From Octopus sinensis (lineage: Eukaryota): a stretch of 64,000 bases of DNA. A model generated the notes under the pieces. The model ran no database searches. It saw only the letters and a program-made list of their open reading frames with translations, and was not told the origin of the DNA. Of the stretch, positions 1,207 through 59,269 are shown one piece after another. Made by a program: the position numbers and the translations under genes. Location: positions 124,434,001-124,498,000 of the forward strand of contig NC_043001.1 of assembly GCF_006345805.1 (NCBI RefSeq), given 5' to 3'. Numbering within the stretch: position 1 is the stretch's first letter; each line of letters opens with the position of its first letter.

Positions 1207-1401
1207 TTTTGCGTCCAAAATACCAGAGTGATTCAACTTCGATGCTCCACTACTTCTAATGGTTTCATATATAACAATACGAATATATAAAGTGACAAGG
1301 CAGAAGCCATTAGGTACTCATCTAGACTGTTGTGAAGAATAGCTATATTTCTTCAAATCACAAATGGATGGAAGCACTCCGTCGTTACGACGATGAGGGT
1401 T
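1207..1401 (-). repeat. 195-bp inverted duplicate of 2174-2368 (SINE 3' end plus flank)
   Basis: Direct reverse-complement match read from the sequence. Confidence 0.93.
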
Positions 1402-5768: not shown

Positions 5769-6123
5769 ACTATATTCATATATATATATATATTGACTAT
5801 ATTCATATATATATATATACATATATATATATATGGTTATCCGTAATAATGAAGGGTGAAATTAATTAATTTGGAAAAATTATCAATTACACCAAGTAGT
5901 CTTCGGCATGTAAAAGCCTCATTCGAGGAAAATTTAAGTAATACTAAGCAATAAGGGTTTAGCAACGAGTTGCCTTACCACATACCGAATTTAGAAATAG
6001 CAGTCAAAGGGTTATAGCTATTTCTTCTACTAAAAAGGGAGATCTCAGTAAAAACAGCATTTGGAAGGCAGACACAAACAGGTAAGAGAGAATGAATTGA
6101 CTGCAATCTATCATACATTTTTT

Positions 6124-6242
6124 TAGTTATCCACGGACGTACGTTTCGAAATCAAGTTTTTAGGAAAGCATAAGAATTAAATATTAAATATTAAATAATT
6201 CTATCTTACCGAAACTTCTTTTCTCTTCAGCGTAGAATACTA
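6124..6242 (-). ncRNA. Type I hammerhead ribozyme (600-bp repeat)
   Basis: Reverse complement of the 6760-6878 motif: CUGAAGA-G..C-GAAA-CGUACG-UC. Confidence 0.8.
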
Positions 6243-6759
6243 TAATCATAAATGATTATATATTGAATTTTGAGATACCAGAAGGCACCAACTCAACTCA
6301 GTATCAGAGCGAGCTAGAATCCGCAACTGGTATCACCGAATTCAATTTGTGAATGAAACGATTGTGTCAACAGCCCCTTCCCACCCGCGTGTAGCCAAAA
6401 CAAGATGCTGTGGTCATCTACTGAGATAAAATATGGTTATCCGTAATAATGAAGGGTGAACGTAATTAATTTGGAAAAATTATCAATTACACCAAGTAGT
6501 CTTCGGCATGTAAAAGCCTCATTCGAGGAAAATTTAAGTAATACTAAGCAATAAGGGTTTAGCAACGAGTTGCCTTACCACATACCGAATTTAGAAATAG
6601 CAGTCAAAGGGTTATAGCTATTTCTTCTACTAAAAAGGGAGATCTCAGTAAAAACAGCATTTGGAAGGCAGACACAAACGGATTCTAGCTCGCTCTGATA
6701 CTGAGTTGAGTTGGTGCCTTCTGGTATCTCAAAATTCAATATATAATCATTTATGATTA

Positions 6760-6878
6760 TAGTATTCTACGCTGAAGAGAAAAGAAGTTTCGGTAAGATA
6801 GAATTATTTAATATTTAATATTTAATTCTTATGCTTTCCTAAAAACTTGATTTCGAAACGTACGTCCGTGGATAACTA
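6760..6878 (+). ncRNA. Type I hammerhead ribozyme (600-bp repeat)
   Basis: Stem I UCUACG/CGUGGA extended by UAGU/ACUA; core CUGAAGA 6772-6778; 76-nt stem II (GAAA/UUUC, AAGUUU/AAACUU, AGAAUUA/UAAUUCU); GAAA 6855-6858; palindromic stem III ACGUACGU; predicted cleavage after GUC at 6866. Confidence 0.85.
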
Positions 6879-7358
6879 AAAAAATGTATGATAGATTGCA
6901 GTCAATTCATTCTCTCTTACCTGTTTGTGTCTGCCTTCCAAATGCTGTTTTTACTGAGATCTCCCTTTTTAGTAGAAGAAATAGCTATAACCCTTTGACT
7001 GCTATTTCTAAATTCGGTATGTGGTAAGGCACTCGTTGCTAAACCCTTATTGCTTAGTATTACTTAAATTTTCCTCGAATGAGGCTTTTACATGCCGAAG
7101 ACTACTTGGTGTAATTGATAATTTTTCCAAATTAATTAATTTCACCCTTCATTATTACGGATAACCATATTTTATCTCAGTAGATGACCACAGCATCTTG
7201 TTTTGGCTACACGCGGGTGGGAAGGGGCTGTTGACACAATCGTTTCATTCACAAATTGAATTCGGTGATACCAGTTGCGGATTCTAGCTCGCTCTGATAC
7301 TGAGTTGAGTTGGTGCCTTCTGGTATCTCAAAATTCAATATATAATCATTTATGATTA

Positions 7359-7477
7359 TAGTATTCTACGCTGAAGAGAAAAGAAGTTTCGGTAAGATAG
7401 AATTATTTAATATTTAATATTTAATTCTTATGCTTTCCTAAAAACTTGATTTCGAAACGTACGTCCGTGGATAACTA
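7359..7477 (+). ncRNA. Type I hammerhead ribozyme (600-bp repeat)
   Basis: Same motif; CUGAAGA 7371-7377, GUC 7463-7465. Confidence 0.85.
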
Positions 7478-7957
7478 AAAAAATGTATGATAGATTGCAG
7501 TCAATTCATTCTCTCTTACCTGTTTGTGTCTGCCTTCCAAATGCTGTTTTTACTGAGATCTCCCTTTTTAGTAGAAGAATAGCTATAACCCTTTGACTGC
7601 TATTTCTAAATTCGGTATGTGGTAAGGCAACTCGTTGCTAAACCCTTATTGCTTAGTATTACTTAAATTTTCCTCGAATGAGGCTTTTACATGCCGAAGA
7701 CTACTTGGTGTAATTGATAATTTTTCCAAATTAATTAATTTCACCCTTCATTATTACGGATAACCATATTTTATCTCAGTAGATGACCACAGCATCTTGT
7801 TTTGGCTACACGCGGGTGGGAAGGGGCTGTTGACACAATCGTTTCATTCACAAATTGAATTCGGTGATACCAGTTGCGGATTCTAGCTCGCTCTGATACT
7901 GAGTTGAGTTGGTGCCTTCTGGTATCTCAAAATTCAATATATAATCATTTATGATTA

Positions 7958-8076
7958 TAGTATTCTACGCTGAAGAGAAAAGAAGTTTCGGTAAGATAGA
8001 ATTATTTAATATTTAATATTTAATTCTTATGCTTTCCTAAAAACTTGATTTCGAAACGTACGTCCGTGGATAACTA
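7958..8076 (+). ncRNA. Type I hammerhead ribozyme (600-bp repeat)
   Basis: Same motif; CUGAAGA 7970-7976, GUC 8062-8064. Confidence 0.85.
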
Positions 8077-8256
8077 AAAAAATGTATGATAGATTGCAGT
8101 CAATTCATTCTCTCTTACCTGTTTGTGTCTGCCTTCCAAATGCTGTTTTTACTGAGATCTCCCTTTTTAGTAGAAGAAATAGCTATAACCCTTTGACTGC
8201 TATTTCTAAATTCGGTATGTGGTAAGGCAACTCGTTGCTAAACCCTTATTGCTTAG

Positions 8257-8293
<37 letters not shown>

Positions 8294-13959: not shown

Positions 13960-14362
13960 AGGCGCAGGAGTGGCTGTGTGGTAAGTAGCTTGCTAACCAA
14001 CCACAGGGTTCCGGGTTCAGTCCCACTGCGTGGCATCTTGGGAAAGTGTCTTCTGCTATAGCCTCGGGCCGGCCAATGCCTTGTGAGTGGATTTAGTAGA
14101 CGGAAACTGAAAGAAACCTGTCGTATATATATGTGTGTGTGTGTATGTGTTTGTGTGTCTGTGTTTGTCCCTCTAGCATTGCTTGACAACCGATGCTGGT
14201 GTGTTTACGTCCCCGTCACTTAGCGGTTCGGCAAAATGAAACGTATAGAATAAGTACTGGGCTTACAAAGAATAAGTCCCGGGGTCGATTTGCTCGACTA
14301 AATGCGGTGCTCCAGCATGGCCGCTGTCAAAATGACTGAAACAAGTAAAAGAGTAAAAGAGT
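13960..14362 (+). mobile_element. tRNA-derived SINE, family B (CORE-like centre, internal TG/TA repeat)
   Basis: Head GGCGCAGGAGTGGCTGTGTGGTAAG, B-box GGGTTCAGTCCC, CTTGGGAAAGTG core-like motif, tail GCGGTGCTCCAGCATGGCCGC...ACTGAAAC; many copies in the window. Confidence 0.88.
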
Positions 14363-14394
14363 ATATATATATATATATATATATATATACTCTT

Positions 14395-15195
14395 TATTCT
14401 TTACTCTTTTATTTGTTTCAATCATTTGACTGTAGCCATACTGGAGCACCGCCTTTAGTCGAGCAAATCTACCCCAGGAATTATTCTTTGTAAGCCTAGT
14501 ATTTATTCTACCGGTCTCTTTTGCTGAACTGCTAAGTTACGGGGAGGTAAACAAACCACCATCAGATGTCAAGCGATGTTGGGGGGAGAAACACAGACAC
14601 ACAAACACACATACATACACACACACACACACATATATATATATACTAGCAGTATCGCCCGGCGTTGCTCAGGTTTGTAAGGGAAATAACTATAAAGCAT
14701 TTTTAGAGAGTTATAGCCAAAAAACAGCAAAAAAATGGAAAAAAATGATGGTAATTTTTTTTTGATAGTTAAAAAAGGTGGAGTTGCGTCCCCTACACAG
14801 TTTGTGGTTTGTGTTCCTGATTCTCGACCCCATGTCGAATTTATCGATTTTTTTCAGAACTGGGGGAACTTTTCAAAATTTTCGCTGCGTTAGTTTTGAA
14901 TTATGACATTGGGAAATGTGTGTGTCAAGTTTCATCAGAATCGGTTGAAAGCCGTGGTCAGGGTGAGGGTACAAGCAAACAGACACACAGAAACACGCAC
15001 AGACAAACTGCCGTTTATATAGAGAGATATATACATATATACGACGGGCTTCTTTCAGTTTCCGCCTACCAAATCTACTCACAAGGCTTTGGTCGACCCG
15101 AGGCTATAGTAGAAGACACCTGCCCAAGGTGCCACGCAGTGGGACTGAACTCAGAAGAATGTGGTTGGTAAGCAAGCCACTTACCGCACAGCCGC
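14395..15195 (-). mobile_element. SINE family B, interrupted by a Helitron
   Basis: Reverse-complement similarity to 13960-14362; tail-to-tail with it. Confidence 0.82.
14646..15027 (-). mobile_element. Non-autonomous Helitron
   Basis: On minus: 5' TC, 3' hairpin (CCTGAGCAACGCCGGG) then CTAG; inserted at A|T without TSD; 3' end shared with 25301-25600. Confidence 0.78.
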
Positions 15196-22449: not shown

Positions 22450-22780
22450 CAATTAAGGATAATTTCCTACTAAGGAATCTTAACAAGAAATTATCAGGTA
22501 GATAGCGTGAAAAACCTCATAAGAGAAAAATTTCGAAAATAATTCTTTCTTATTGAACATATTAATTTATATATAGAGGACATTATTATACATACATGCC
22601 ACACGCTACGAGGGACATTAGTCATTTCTACCAAAAATTTTACTAATCCTACCCAATGCAATTTTTTCAAAGCAAGACATGTCTTGCTTTGAAAAAATTG
22701 CATTGGGTAGGATTAGTAAAATTTTTGGTAGAAATGACTAATGTCCTTCGTAGCGTGTGGCATGTATGTATAATAATGCC

Positions 22781-22784
<4 letters not shown>
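22450..22784. repeat. (TA)n-inserted element ending in a spacerless ~200-bp palindrome (22581-22778)
   Basis: 99-bp arms with one mismatch, centred on GACATGTC; terminal motif shared with elements at ~47625 and ~60505. Confidence 0.85.
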
Positions 22785-22916: not shown

Positions 22917-23784
22917 CGAGATGTATTCAACATTATCCAACTGTATATTTTACCACCAAAACTAAAACCGTGTGGGAAAAATCCGTTGGGTTGAAGGTGA
23001 CACCACGTTTCTCGCGTCAGTTCCCGGCTGTGAGCATAGGATGTATTATGCGCTCGTCAGACTTTCATTTCCACACAAGATAACCGAGCGCATTCAGCAG
23101 AGACTATCAACCCACGTCTCATCTGTAGTGATGACTAAATTCATGAAATCTAGGTCGCAGTTTGTACAGTCCAGCATGTCCTGAACGATTTCCACGCGGA
23201 CTTGCTTCTGCTGCTCTGCCAGTAACGTAGAAACGAATTTCACCTACACTCTCCACATAAACAAATGCTCCGTTAAAATGGATTGCACTAATCTTTATTC
23301 CCACTTCGTGGGCAATTTCCAGGATGGTTGCATAACGTTCTTCCATGACTATTCGATGAACTTCCGCAATCGGCTCCTAGTTTCGGCTTCGAGGTGGCCT
23401 ACCTGAACGTGCTTCACTCTCAACTAAGATACAGCCATGTCTGAAACGGCTGTACCACTCCTTGATCTGGGTTTTGTCCATAGCGTCATTAACAACAGTC
23501 AGCAGAATATTCTGAATGGTTTCAGCTCGAGTATCACGAAGCTTTTGGCACAACTTGATGCAGTGTATCTGCTCGATGCTTTATTAGAATTGATAATTCA
23601 ATAAGTGTGCACTACATATCTTTACTCTAGACGAAACAACTGGAAAGTGACGCGGCCTACCTACGCGAAAAATTTCGGGATTGCTCAGGCAGAGTGGTGT
23701 TACATTCTACACAAAGGATTTTCTCCACGCAGCATTAGTTTGGGCGGGAAAAAATATGGACTGATACTCTTTGAACGTACCTCG
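22917..23784 (-). mobile_element. Internally deleted mariner element
   Basis: Ends CGAGGTACGTTCAA / CGAGATGTATTCAA (degenerate TIRs), TA flank; minus-strand KTQIKEWYSRFRHG...ESEARSGRP mariner HTH. Confidence 0.8.
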
Positions 23785-47379: not shown

Positions 47380-48005
47380 TCGACCCCACAACTTTTTACA
47401 AAGCCTGATACTCATTATATCGGCTTTTTGCCGAACGGCTATGTTTTGGGCTCATTGCCAAGCGGCAGGGGAGAACAAACACAAAGTCAAACACGCAAGC
47501 ATATACACACACGCACGCACACACACACATACACACACACATACACACACACATACACACACACATACACACACACATACATATATGTATATGTATATAT
47601 ATGTATATATATATATATTTAATGTAGGATAAATTTTTTTTCGAAAAAAAATGTTATCAATGGCCAGCATATTAAAAAATACCTTTAAAGGTTAAAATTA
47701 TAAATAAGTTATAAATAAGTGCAAACGAGAAAATTTCTAATGCCAAATATGCCGAAATTGAACATATGGTTATGAACAATATGTTCAATTTCGGCATATT
47801 TGGCATTAGAAATTTTTTCGTTTGCCCTTATTTATAATTTATGTATATATATGAGTTTCTTTCAGGTTACGTCTATCAAAACTACTCACGAAAATTTGAT
47901 CGGCCCGAGACTATAGTAGAAGACACTTGATCAAGGTGAACAAAGTAAGGCTGAACCTGGAACCGTTTGGTGGGGAAGCAAGCTTCTTACCACAGATCCA
48001 TGCCT
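47380..48005 (-). mobile_element. SINE family B split by a foldback insertion (~47620-47840) in its internal TA repeat
   Basis: 3' part at 47380-47500 and 5' part at 47850-48005 match family B; between them a hairpin 47709-47767 / 47779-47837. Confidence 0.72.
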
Positions 48006-48079: not shown

Positions 48080-48438
48080 TTGGAGTAAAGATTGTTTCCC
48101 AACATAACATGACAGTCCCGGTTTTAGGACGAATGTTGCTGTAATTTAGCCCCGGGAGACATTGTCTCCAGCTGGCTATACGACATGATCTGTGTCATTA
48201 TATTTTCGAACAAGGGAATCTAGCACCCCCACTCAGCTCAAAACTATAACCCGAAATCGCGATACACAGATATTGTTTTAGCTGAGTGGGGGTGCAAGAT
48301 TCATTTGTTCGAAAGTATAAGGACACAAATCGTATCGTATAGCCAGCTGGAGACAATGTCTCCTGGGGCTAAATTACAGCAACATTTGTCCTAAAACCTG
48401 GACTGTCATGTTATGTTGACAAACAATTTTTACTCCAA
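48080..48438. repeat. Foldback/MITE-like inverted repeat, ~170-bp arms and ~20-bp spacer
   Basis: Arms are reverse complements with scattered mismatches. Confidence 0.85.
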
Positions 48439-55390: not shown

Positions 55391-55845
55391 TATATATAAT
55401 ATTTGCATTACAATTACATCGTTTCCCAATGATGTCCCGTTAAATCTGTGTTCACATTTCCACATGCACGAATTAGAGCCACTTGGAACATGCGCATACA
55501 AATACACACGTGCGCGCGTACACACATGCACGCACACAAACATGTAGGAATGCGTACCAACTCAACTACATATGGTCACAAAGCCGTGCACTCCATATAT
55601 AAATTCATGTATATATATACAGATTTTTATGATTGTTAAAAGAGCTTATTATGATTGCTTTGCAACCTAGATATTCTTTTACATTTTTATACCACTGACT
55701 TCTCTAGTATCTAACTCAGTGCCAATTACATAACGTGTATATAAACATACACGCACGCACACACACACACACATATATTGTATATAATGTATATTATATA
55801 TATATATTGTATATATATATATAATATATATATATATTATATATA

Positions 55846-55885
<40 letters not shown>

Positions 55886-55888
<3 letters not shown>

Positions 55889-58230
55889 CTAAGCAATAAG
55901 GGTTTAGCAACGAGTTGCCTACCACATACCGAATTTAGAAATAGCAGTCAAAGGTTTATAGCTATTTCTTCTACTAAAAAGGGAGATCTCAGTAAAAACA
56001 GCATTTGGAAGGCAGACACAAACAGGTAGAGAGAATGAATTGACTGCAATCTATCATACATTTTTTTAGTTATCCACGGACGTACTACTTTCGAAATCAA
56101 GTTTTAAGGAAAGCATAAGAATTAAATATTAAATATTAAATAATTCTATCTTACCGAAACTTCTTTTCTCTTCAGCGTAGAATACTATATCATAAATGAT
56201 TATATATTGAATTTTGAGATACCAGAAGGCACCACTCAACTCAGTATCAGAGCGGCTAGAATCCGCAACTGGTATCACATCACCGATTCAATTTGTGAAT
56301 GAAACGATTGTGTCAACAGCCCCTTCCCACCCGCGTGTAGCCAAAACAAGATGTGGTCATCTACTGAGATAATATGGTTATCCGTAATAATGAAGGGTGA
56401 AATTAATTAATTTGGAAAAATTATCAATTACACCAAGTAGTCTTCGGCATGTAAAAGCCTCATTCGAGGAAAATTTAAGTAATACTAAGCAATAAGGTTT
56501 AGCAACGAGTTGCCTTACCACATACCGAATTTAGAAATAGCAGTCAAAGGGTTATAGCTATTTCTTCTACTAAAAAGGGAGATCTCAGTAAAAACAGCAT
56601 TTGGAAGGCAGACACAAACAGGTAAGAGAGAATGAATTGACTGCAATCTATCATACATTTTTTTAGTTATCCACGGACGTACGTTTCGAAATCAAGTTTT
56701 AAGGAAAGCATAAGAATTAATATTAAATATTAAATAATTCTATCTTACCGAAACTTTTTTCTTCTCTTCAGCGTAGAATACTATAATCATAAATGATTAT
56801 ATATTGAATTTTGAGATACCAGAAGGCACCAACTCAACTCAGTATCAGAGCGAGCTAGAATCCGCAACTGGTATCACCGATTCAATTTGTGAATGAAACG
56901 ATTGTGTCAACAGCCCCTTCCCCCCGCGTGTAGCCAAAACAAGATTCTGTGGTCATCTACTGAGATAAAATATGGTTATCCGTAAAATGAAGGGTGAAAT
57001 TAATTAATTTGGAAAAATTATCAATTACACCAAGTAGTCTTCGGCATGTAAAAGCCTCATTCGAGGAAAATTTAAGTAATACTAAGCCATAAGGGTTTAG
57101 CAACGAGTTGCCTTACCACATACCGAATTTAGAATAGCAGTCAAAGGGTTATAGCTATTTCTTCTTCTAAAAGGGGAGATCTCAGTAAAAACAGCATTTG
57201 GAAGGCAGACACAAACAGGTAAGAGAGAATGAATTGACTGCAATCTATCATACATTTTTTTAGTTATCCACGGACGTACGTTTCGAAATCAAGTTTTAAG
57301 GAAAGCATAAGAATTAAATATTAAATATTAATAATTCTATCTTACCGAAACTTCTTTTCTCTTCAGCGTAGAATACTATAATCATAAATGATTATATATT
57401 GAATTTTGAGATACCAGAAGGCACACCAACTCAACTCAGTATCAGAGCGAGCTAGAATCCGCAACTGGTATCACCGAATTCAATTTGTGAATGAAACGAT
57501 TGTGTCAACAGCCCCTTCCCCCGCGTGTAGCCAAAACAAGATGCTGTTCATCTACTGAGATAAAATATGGTTATCCGTAATAATGAAGGGTGAAATTAAT
57601 TAATTTGGAAAAATTATCAATTACACCAAGTAGTCTTCGGCATGTAAAAGCCTCATTCGAGGAAAATTTAAGTAATACTAAGCAATAAGGGTTTAGCAAC
57701 GAGTTGCCTTACCACATACCGAATTTAGAAATAGCAGTCAAAGGGTTATAGCTATTTCTTCTACTAAAAAGGGAGATCTCAGTAAAAACAGCATTTGGAA
57801 GGCAGACACAAACAGGTAAGAGAGAATGAATTGACTGCAATCTATCATAATTTTTTTAGTTATCCACGGACGTACGTTTCGAAATCAAGTTTTAAGGAAA
57901 GCATAAGAATTAATATTAAATATTAAATATTCTATCTTCCGAAACTTCTTTTCTCTTCAGCGTAGAATACTATAATCATAAATGATTATATATTGAATTT
58001 TGAGATACCAGAAGGCACCAACTCACTCAGTATCAGAGCGAGCTAGAATCCGCAACTGGTATCACCGAATTCAATTTGTGAATGAACGATTGTGTCAACA
58101 AGCCCCTTCCCACCCGCGTGTAGCCAAAACAAGATGCTGTGGTCATCTACTGAGATAAAATATGGTTATCCGTAATAATGAAGGGTGAAATTAATTAATT
58201 TGGAAAAATTATCATTACACCAAGTAGTCT
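55886..58230 (-). mobile_element. Array 2 of the 600-bp hammerhead repeat (~3.9 head-to-tail units)
   Basis: Unit starts at 56372, 56970, 57565, 58160; minus-strand hammerheads at ~56067-56187 (stem III altered), 56664-56783, 57261-57378, 57857-57972; begins in (TA)n. Confidence 0.92.
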
Positions 58231-58231
58231 C

Positions 58232-59222
58232 ATATATATTCAACAACAATTGAGGAATGGCCTTAATAGGCTATTCGATCCACTAGAAAAGGCAGCCAGG
58301 ACTCAAACCGCCAAGTAGTAGTAATTCAGAAATTAGAGAAAATTTTAAAACATTTACCCTAAATCATCTTAGACAATGCATTGTTTCGGTGTTTTAATGG
58401 AAACCAGCTTAATTAATTAAATTAAGTCAATCCACCAAAGGCTACACCTCGTCGGATAAGAGGCCAAGAGAGATGGATATACACGAGGCATCTGTATCTA
58501 TGCCCTAAAATTTTCAAAACTATCGTACTCGCGCCAACTTATCAGCAGTAAATATAAACTGCTGATTCAATTTCAGAATTAGTCAGAAAATCATCAATTA
58601 ATCATATAGGGTAGCAAAAAATCAATAAATTTATCGCCACCAGCGGTCTAGTGAGAAAGAGAAAATAGTCATAGACTATATATATAAATTCAGCAACAAT
58701 TGAGGAATGGACTTAATAGGCCTTTCGACCCACTAGAAAGAGCAGCCAGGACTCAAACCGCCAAGTAGTAGTAATTCAGAAATTAGAGAAAATTTTAAAT
58801 CATTTACCCTAAATCATCTTTAGACAATGCATTGTTTCGGTGTTTTTAATGGCAAACCAGCTTAATTAAATTAAATTAAGTCAATCCACCAAAGGCTACA
58901 CCTCGTCGGTAAAGAGGTGTAGCCGTTGGTGGATTGACTTAATTTAATTTAATTAAGCTGGTTTGCCATTAAAAACACCGAAACAATGCATTGTCTAAAG
59001 ATGATTTAGGGTAAATGTTTTAAAATTTTCTCTAATTTCTGAATTACTACTATTTGGCGGTTTGAGTCCTGGCTGCTCTTTCTAGTGGGTCGAATGGCCT
59101 ATTAAGGTCATTCCTCAATTGTTGTTGAATTTATATATATAGTCTTTGACTATTTTCTCTTTCTCACTAGACCGCTGGGGGCGATAAATTTCTATTGAAT
59201 TTTTTGCTACCCTATATTGATT
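58232..59222. mobile_element. Second hammerhead-bearing repeat family (~450-bp unit): 1.5 tandem units plus a ~310-bp inversion
   Basis: 58232-58460 repeated from ~58681; 58914-59222 is the reverse complement of ~58597-58903; ends in TA/TG repeats. Confidence 0.88.
58817..58915 (-). ncRNA. Type I hammerhead with variant core CCGACGA (second copy at 58367-58461)
   Basis: UCUUUA-CCGACGA-GGUGU...ACACC-GAAA-CAAUGCAUUG-UC-UAAAGA; perfect 6-bp stem I, 5-bp stem II base, palindromic stem III. Confidence 0.75.
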
Positions 59223-59223
59223 A

Positions 59224-59269
<46 letters not shown>

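What the first reader, a model, noticed from the sequence alone, without database searches (positions are those of the whole stretch)
55886..58230. Second array 50 kb away carries its own fixed SNP: signature of copying from a single monomer
Seen: all four array 2 units read AAGTTTTAAGGAAAG, while all four array 1 copies read AAGTTTTTAGGAAAG (in stem II). Both arrays have an end at the same base of the unit (...TTGCTTAGTAT joined to (AT)n, at 8259 and 55886). Inference: two independent insertions, each made by repeated copying of one template variant, as expected for rolling-circle reverse transcription of a circular RNA primed at TAT microhomology. Caveat: the many 1-bp indels in array 2 look like uncorrected long-read errors, and local tandem duplication could also homogenise units.
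Basis: partly seen in the sequence, partly recalled or inferred. Interest (0 to 1): 0.75.

Follow-up and report, generated by a model that had tools for sequence, protein, structure and literature searches.

The report
Hammerhead retrozyme arrays copied from monomers
This is one of hundreds of young insertions of a 600-letter, protein-free jumping element with a predicted self-cutting RNA motif; its marker letter is shared with many other insertions, but across the genome each insertion is internally uniform, which likely means that it was copied repeatedly from one RNA template, probably a circle, by a Penelope-type enzyme.

Summary
Observation confirmed: array 2 (55886-58230) differs from array 1 by one fixed substitution, both end at the same base, and their flanks are unrelated. 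The unit is a 600-bp non-coding repeat with a predicted type I hammerhead, i.e. a non-LTR retrozyme. The SNP is not array 2's own: 260 exact genomic matches against 1088 for the other allele; it marks a subfamily. The shared end is the family's commonest one (57 of 123 ends). The inference does better genome-wide. In 77 arrays, 62 of 64 scorable ones are pure at this site. Three of five tested variants fill one array only, two of them across both inverted arms. Cleavage junctions show no excess of indels. Arrays sit in (AT)n, and 39 of 46 two-armed insertions use two different fixed start sites, one per arm: the Penelope 'tail' footprint. Best reading: Penelope-type target-primed copying of one monomer, probably a circular RNA. 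Circularity, cleavage, expression and the partner enzyme are not shown; linear multimer templates remain possible. The model was proposed in 2014 and 2020; this scan has reported similar families with this footprint on other DNA of this genome.

The parts
55886..58230 (-). Array 2: single-armed head-to-tail array, 3.9 units of the 600-bp retrozyme; RNA-sense 3' end at unit position 194 (55886), 5' truncation at position 233 (58230); A574T in all four copies
57860..57969 (-). Predicted type I hammerhead of the last array 2 unit (stem I, CUGAAGA, about 75-nt stem II, GAAAC, palindromic GUAC loop, GUC); predicted cut between 57869 and 57868. Further copies cut at 57273/57272, 56676/56675 and 56079/56078; the last has a damaged core in the assembly, probably an error
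57894..57894 (-). Marker SNP A574T (also at 57298, 56701, 56106); subfamily allele in a predicted internal loop of stem II
55773..55888 (.). (AT)n target microsatellite at the priming end of array 2; a remnant ATATAT stands at the other end (58233-58240)
5831..6679 (-). Array 1 left arm; 3' end at unit position 304 (start site B) in (AT)n; 5' end at position 57
6679..8259 (+). Array 1 right arm; 5' end at position 412, 3' end at position 194 (start site A) in (AT)n; hammerhead cores at 6772, 7371, 7970
58232..59225 (.). Older, unrelated second hammerhead family (473-bp unit, CCGAYGA core, 64-nt stem II) as a two-armed insertion ending at its own two sites (142 and 230); array 2 abuts it; cores at 58369-58459 and 58820-58913 (-)

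Best explanation
Array 2 is one insertion of a young 600-bp non-coding repeat family whose units each carry a predicted type I hammerhead ribozyme, and each insertion was likely written into an (AT)n microsatellite in one event by a Penelope-type reverse transcriptase/endonuclease copying a single monomer template, probably a circular RNA, several times over. Shown: unit anatomy, insertion in (AT)n, fixed internal 3' ends, scattered 5' ends, uniform arrays, array-private variants elsewhere in the family, one A-site plus one B-site end in two-armed insertions. Inferred: transcription, self-cleavage and ligation to a circle; cutting of both DNA strands; priming of one DNA end at site A (194/203) and of the other at site B (289-304); strand-displacing read-around; joining of the two cDNA 5' ends (two-armed, like array 1) or of one cDNA to the target (single-armed, like array 2). 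The A574T SNP only tells which circulating subfamily supplied the template.
For: Purity: 62 of 64 arrays with 2 or more copies of site 574 are pure. Non-consensus variants at sites covered by 3 or more copies: 114 fixed, 170 single-unit, 17 intermediate. Mean divergence is 0.32% within arrays, 0.33% between arms and 1.27% between arrays; Fst-like 0.89. Genome-wide privacy held for 3 of 5 variants tested: T570C, 4 hits, two in each arm of one array; A265C, 8 hits in one array; A91G, 8 of 11 hits in both arms of one array plus 3 lone units. Arms of one insertion are identical in 15 of 16 pairs, against 550 of 3088 pairs from different arrays. 68 of 123 arms run through 2 or more cleavage sites, up to 12; 286 of 307 junctions are canonical and the indel rate there (0.048) equals the median elsewhere (0.052), so there is no scar of end-to-end template jumping. 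118 of 123 3' ends abut (AT)n; 39 of 46 two-armed insertions pair A with B, none B with B (permutation mean 20.8, 0 of 200000 reach 39). The 5' end of the A arm bears no fixed relation to site B, unlike classical twin priming on one linear RNA (the classical expectation is recalled). A second, unrelated family shows the same pairing in 9 of 11 two-armed copies. Young RT + GIY-YIG ORFs of 775-781 aa exist in G000. A purified PLE protein cuts both strands of AT-rich DNA and starts at two internal RNA sites (PMC11167929).
Against: Array 2's own SNP is shared by many arrays. Two of five candidate private variants were subfamily markers (G211A, 320 hits; C48T, 15 hits at 5 loci), so the 14 variants private among 77 arrays overstate privacy. 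One insertion (L063) has an arm-specific variant, 3 of 3 against 0 of 3. 17 intermediate variants exist; several are scattered reversions to the majority allele, as polishing errors would be, but raw reads were not seen. 6 of 123 5' ends fall within positions 597-5, at the cleavage site (1.6 expected; window chosen after looking), hinting at some cleaved linear templates or pausing. In vitro, PAc uses uncleaved RNA and needs no hammerhead activity. No PLE among 42 GIY-YIG loci shares sequence with the unit. The 3' ends here do match the target, whereas PAc starts without homology.
Confidence: 0.65

Rival explanations
1. Penelope-type target-primed copying of linear, uncleaved multimer transcripts from uniform source arrays; no circle at the insertion step. 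Monomer bottlenecks happen rarely, by another route (RNA-to-RNA or DNA-circle amplification).
For: PAc initiates internally and uses unprocessed RNA (PMC11167929). A short stem III with a palindromic loop cleaves poorly as a monomer (PMC4209133 passages). Array 2's allele and array 1's haplotype are shared by many arrays. Mild excess of 5' ends at the cleavage site.
Against: Copying a linear transcript can only keep or shorten an arm, yet arms reach 12 junctions while most have 1-3, and long arrays carry variants found nowhere else in the assembly. Two arms from different RNA molecules would not need complementary start sites. Source arrays absent from this haplotype cannot be excluded.
Confidence: 0.2
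2. Short insertions that later grew and homogenised locally by unequal crossover or gene conversion, the satellite-birth model discussed in bioRxiv 10.64898/2026.07.22.740005.
For: 17 intermediate variants and one arm-specific variant; within-array divergence rises with array length (rho 0.57), though this estimate is biased low for short arrays and dominated by assembly error.
Against: Private variants are fixed across inverted arms. Fixed variants outnumber intermediate ones 114 to 17, and minority units are scattered, not adjacent. Arrays of 10-19 units differ internally by only 0.06-0.33%.
Confidence: 0.1
3. Assembly artefact or segmental duplication of one array.
For: High indel load in array 2.
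Against: Flanks are unrelated, the architectures differ, both alleles occur at many loci on many contigs, and the family is present in short-read contigs of several runs.
Confidence: 0.03

Closest known systems
Metazoan non-LTR retrozymes (Cervera and de la Pena 2020, PMC7229834: passages and Discussion read; Li, Clavereau and Pollet, bioRxiv 10.64898/2026.07.22.740005: parts 1-3 of 5 read, abstract to Discussion)
   Same: Non-coding tandem units, each with a type I hammerhead; dispersed arrays; co-occurrence with PLEs; proposed circRNA-templated tandem cDNA insertion.
   Different: 600 bp unit (170-400 nt in the 2020 paper, 51-972 bp in the 2026 survey); stem II of about 75 nt; two-armed insertions in (AT)n with two fixed start sites and array-private fixed variants, which the parts I read do not describe; no homology to a PLE pLTR found here; RNA not tested.
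Penelope-like elements: Neptune/Naiad/Poseidon insertion structure (Craig et al. 2021, PMC8557442, passages; Frangieh et al. 2024, PMC11167929, main text read; Cervera and de la Pena 2014, PMC4209133, passages)
   Same: 5' truncation, partial tandems, an inverted 5'-truncated copy, a tail at one end that equals the distance between two RT start sites, AT-rich or (TA)n targets, hammerhead with palindromic helix III; the 2014 paper already proposes circles as templates for more-than-unit copying.
   Different: No ORF (longest open frame 51 codons); the tail is about 100 nt instead of 30-40; ends show microhomology to the target; arms reach 12 junctions.
Non-autonomous Chlamys elements such as MRC1 (PMC8557442, passage)
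   Same: Non-autonomous PLE passengers with multicopy head-to-tail insertions.
   Different: They resemble an autonomous family at the 3' end and most Chlamys lack a hammerhead; here no partner similarity was found.

Membership tests
Non-LTR retrozyme | Tandem non-coding units, each with a type I hammerhead | tested here: met
   Core and stems found in every intact unit; G4A turns a G-U pair of stem I into A-U; no frame over 51 codons. Rfam gave no hit at gathering score, probably because of the long stem II.
Non-LTR retrozyme | Dispersed multi-locus family without LTRs | tested here: met
   At least 1348 exact stem II matches, plus a further subfamily; 77 arrays examined.
Non-LTR retrozyme | Self-cleavage of the RNA | not testable with these tools
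   Structure prediction only.
Non-LTR retrozyme | Expression as monomeric circular RNA | not testable with these tools
   No listed run is on record as RNA and all runs are contigs. The monomer folds better than shuffles, z -5.4.
PLE-mobilised element | Two internal RT start sites giving a tail at one end; inverted 5'-truncated arm | tested here: met
   39 of 46 two-armed insertions pair A with B; all 46 have the same arm orientation.
PLE-mobilised element | AT-rich or microsatellite target | tested here: met
   118 of 123 3' ends abut (AT)n.
PLE-mobilised element | Sequence relation to the pLTR of an autonomous PLE | tested here: inconclusive
   No similarity in 42 loci taken from 147 GIY-YIG matches (150 of 5029 candidates scored); other PLE families were not examined.
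Autonomous PLE | RT + GIY-YIG ORF | tested here: not met
   The unit is non-coding.

The most novel reading that the evidence does not exclude
Each insertion is a genomic record of rolling-circle reverse transcription of one circular RNA molecule by a Penelope RT dimer that primes both cut DNA ends at two different fixed sites on the same circle; array-private variants are single-molecule RNA errors or edits written into every unit. This would be direct genomic evidence for the so far hypothetical retrozyme cycle and would explain the tandem, inverted and tailed structure of PLE insertions.
Probability: 0.4. Interest if true: 0.78.

Novelty: new member of a known kind. Interest (0 to 1): 0.52.

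Why it matters
How animal retrozymes get back into the genome, and why Penelope elements insert as tandem, inverted, tailed copies, are open questions; the circle-template model (PMC4209133, PMC7229834) has been proposed but, in the papers I read, not shown. A young family of over a thousand units, with uniform arrays, private variants shared by both arms and two mapped start sites, gives exact templates, primers and predictions for an in vitro or pedigree test.

Tried and rejected
Rfam scan: no hit. A hammerhead-like match at 23060 (-) is a lone hit outside any array, in a stretch that I took by eye for a DNA-transposon remnant; not followed further. Two pattern searches put the variant at the wrong base and are uninformative; A91G and A265C were repeated correctly. 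An apparent pile of 5' ends at position 1 was partly an artefact of splitting at the reference origin; after correction the ends are compatible with uniform (KS p 0.10) with a small local excess. Apparent intermediate variants at 544-558 were alignment artefacts of the AT-rich loop and were masked. Search for the partner PLE: two young RT-GIY-YIG families found, neither similar to the unit. No RNA holder listed; contigs cannot show ends, strand or circularity; a 'goes back 596' joint arises from tandem DNA as well. Presence or absence of array 2 in other individuals: no listed contig bridges 58230, which proves nothing. The 574 allele in short-read contigs shows only as a one-letter gap at 7440 and is ambiguous. 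A-to-G bias among the 14 candidate private variants (4 A>G, 2 T>C) is too small to judge. Literature searches that found no description of this footprint in retrozymes: (listings only, except the papers named); supplements were not read, including Figure S9 of PMC7229834 and the closed bioRxiv supplements, which may bear on novelty.

Full report
Observation. Aligning all 11 unit pieces shows one fixed difference between the arrays, A574T on the ribozyme strand, counted from the predicted cleavage site. Both arrays end at unit position 194 next to (AT)n. Array 2 has 32 gap openings in 2373 nt against 5 in 2431 for array 1, and short-read contigs restore several of the missing letters, so the indels are probably sequencing error. 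The flanks are unrelated.

What the unit is. It is 600 bp and non-coding (longest frame 51 codons). It carries a type I hammerhead pattern: stem I, CUGAAGA, a stem II of about 75 nt, GAAAC, a palindromic GUAC loop and GUC (the core consensus is recalled and matches the description in PMC4209133). Rfam does not score it. The monomer folds well, z -5.4. The SNP falls in a predicted internal loop of stem II. This anatomy fits the non-LTR retrozymes of PMC7229834 and bioRxiv 10.64898/2026.07.22.740005. Cleavage and expression were not testable. Earlier notes of this scan call the genome an octopus; I did not verify that.

The SNP is not private. A 32-mer with array 2's allele matches 260 times in G000 and with array 1's allele 1088 times; a further subfamily was missed by both patterns. 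I examined 77 arrays: the 2 in the window, 36 best hits to array 1's unit (biased to that haplotype) and 39 taken from the pattern lists, mostly contig C1. Hits under 88% identity, bases next to indels and the AT-rich loop 538-560 were left out. At site 574, 45 arrays are pure A, 17 pure T and 2 mixed. Array 1's haplotype is shared by 14 of 51 typed arrays; array 2's substitution haplotype by three others, two of which have a slightly longer unit. Units therefore do not cluster uniquely by array, and this SNP alone cannot separate a monomer template from a linear transcript of a uniform source array.

Evidence for a monomer bottleneck. Across the sample, non-consensus variants are fixed (114) or single-unit (170), rarely intermediate (17); divergence is 0.32% within arrays, 0.33% between the arms of one insertion and 1.27% between arrays. 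Fourteen fixed variants were seen in one array only among the 77. Five were tested genome-wide. T570C gives 4 hits, two in each arm of one insertion. A265C gives 8 hits in one array. A91G gives 8 hits in both arms of one array and 3 lone units elsewhere. G211A (320 hits) and C48T (15 hits at 5 loci) were subfamily markers. Arms of one insertion are identical in 15 of 16 pairs, against 550 of 3088 unrelated pairs; the exception is L063, with an arm-specific variant. Several intermediate cases are scattered units carrying the majority allele, as polishing errors would give, but this needs raw reads.

Insertion footprint. 118 of 123 RNA-sense 3' ends abut (AT)n. 107 of 123 fall on positions 194, 203, 297 or 304, although 35 positions offer AT homology and the best one is unused; the used sites are predicted to be more open than average (0.75 and 0.57 unpaired against 0.37). 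46 of 77 insertions have two arms with both 3' ends outward; 39 pair site A (186-203) with site B (286-309), 2 are A-A and none B-B; no permutation of 200000 reached 39. Single-armed arrays such as array 2 end at A in 28 of 31. The 5' ends are spread over the unit (KS p 0.10), with 6 of 123 at the cleavage site against 1.6 expected (post hoc). 68 of 123 arms cross two or more cleavage sites without junction scars (286 of 307 canonical). This matches the PLE footprint of inverted truncated copies and a one-sided tail (PMC8557442), which a purified PLE explains by cutting both strands of AT-rich DNA and starting at two internal RNA sites (PMC11167929). That paper also shows that uncleaved RNA is a substrate, which keeps the linear rival alive.

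Context. Array 2 abuts an older, unrelated hammerhead family at 58232-59225 (473-bp unit, CCGAYGA core, a double change that keeps its stem III palindromic), which pairs its own two start sites in 9 of 11 two-armed copies among 23 distinct loci. G000 holds young RT + GIY-YIG ORFs of 775-781 aa; one family appears to end at two positions about 55 nt apart. None of the 42 loci resembles the unit, so the partner is unknown.

Mechanism and verdict. Most likely (0.65), each array is one Penelope-type target-primed event that copied a single monomer repeatedly, probably a circle; linear multimers (0.2), later local amplification (0.1) and artefact (0.03) are the rivals. The model was proposed in PMC4209133 and PMC7229834; my searches found no paper with this genomic test, but supplements were not read. 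Earlier notes of this scan describe similar families, some with 600-bp units, with the same footprint elsewhere in this genome; I reached my reading before opening them, and they are not independent support. New member of a known kind; interest 0.52.

Noticed in passing
window 58232-59225: Second, unrelated hammerhead family (473 bp, CCGAYGA core with C at position 4, long stem II) with the same two-site, two-armed insertion pattern; array 2 sits in its (AT)n flank.
   Followed up: yes
L062:3952-6445: Every unit of this array has the A7 run just after the cleavage site expanded, to a different length in each unit (about 17-35 A); possibly RT slippage on each pass. One unit of L053 shows the same.
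   Followed up: no
L063 (G000:C4:42487280-42490426): G582C is in all 3 copies of one arm and none of 3 in the other: two templates, or a later event.
   Followed up: partly
L175, L177, L179: A subfamily about 4% from array 1's unit forms arms of 14-19 units; L175 carries an array-specific 166C with 3 scattered reversions.
   Followed up: partly
L163-L173: Young Penelope-like elements: a 775-781 aa RT + GIY-YIG ORF with CxxC before the nuclease; in L163 and L167 a 479-aa upstream ORF; the L170/L173 family has a small hammerhead-like motif in its 3' region.
   Followed up: partly
L034:12842-14448 and L081:14156-15815: Partial unit copies lie 1.6 kb beyond two long arrays; the gaps hold other small hammerhead-like motifs with a CCGA.GA core.
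   Followed up: no
L155:2616-2838; L038, L039, L080, L100 flanks: Diverged (70-87%) short relatives of the unit's priming region, suggesting older families of the same lineage.
   Followed up: no
window 1207-1401 and 2174-2368: A 195-bp perfect inverted repeat pair about 770 bp apart; other long palindromes at 14124-14637, 22575-22784, 47699-47847, 48080-48438.
   Followed up: no
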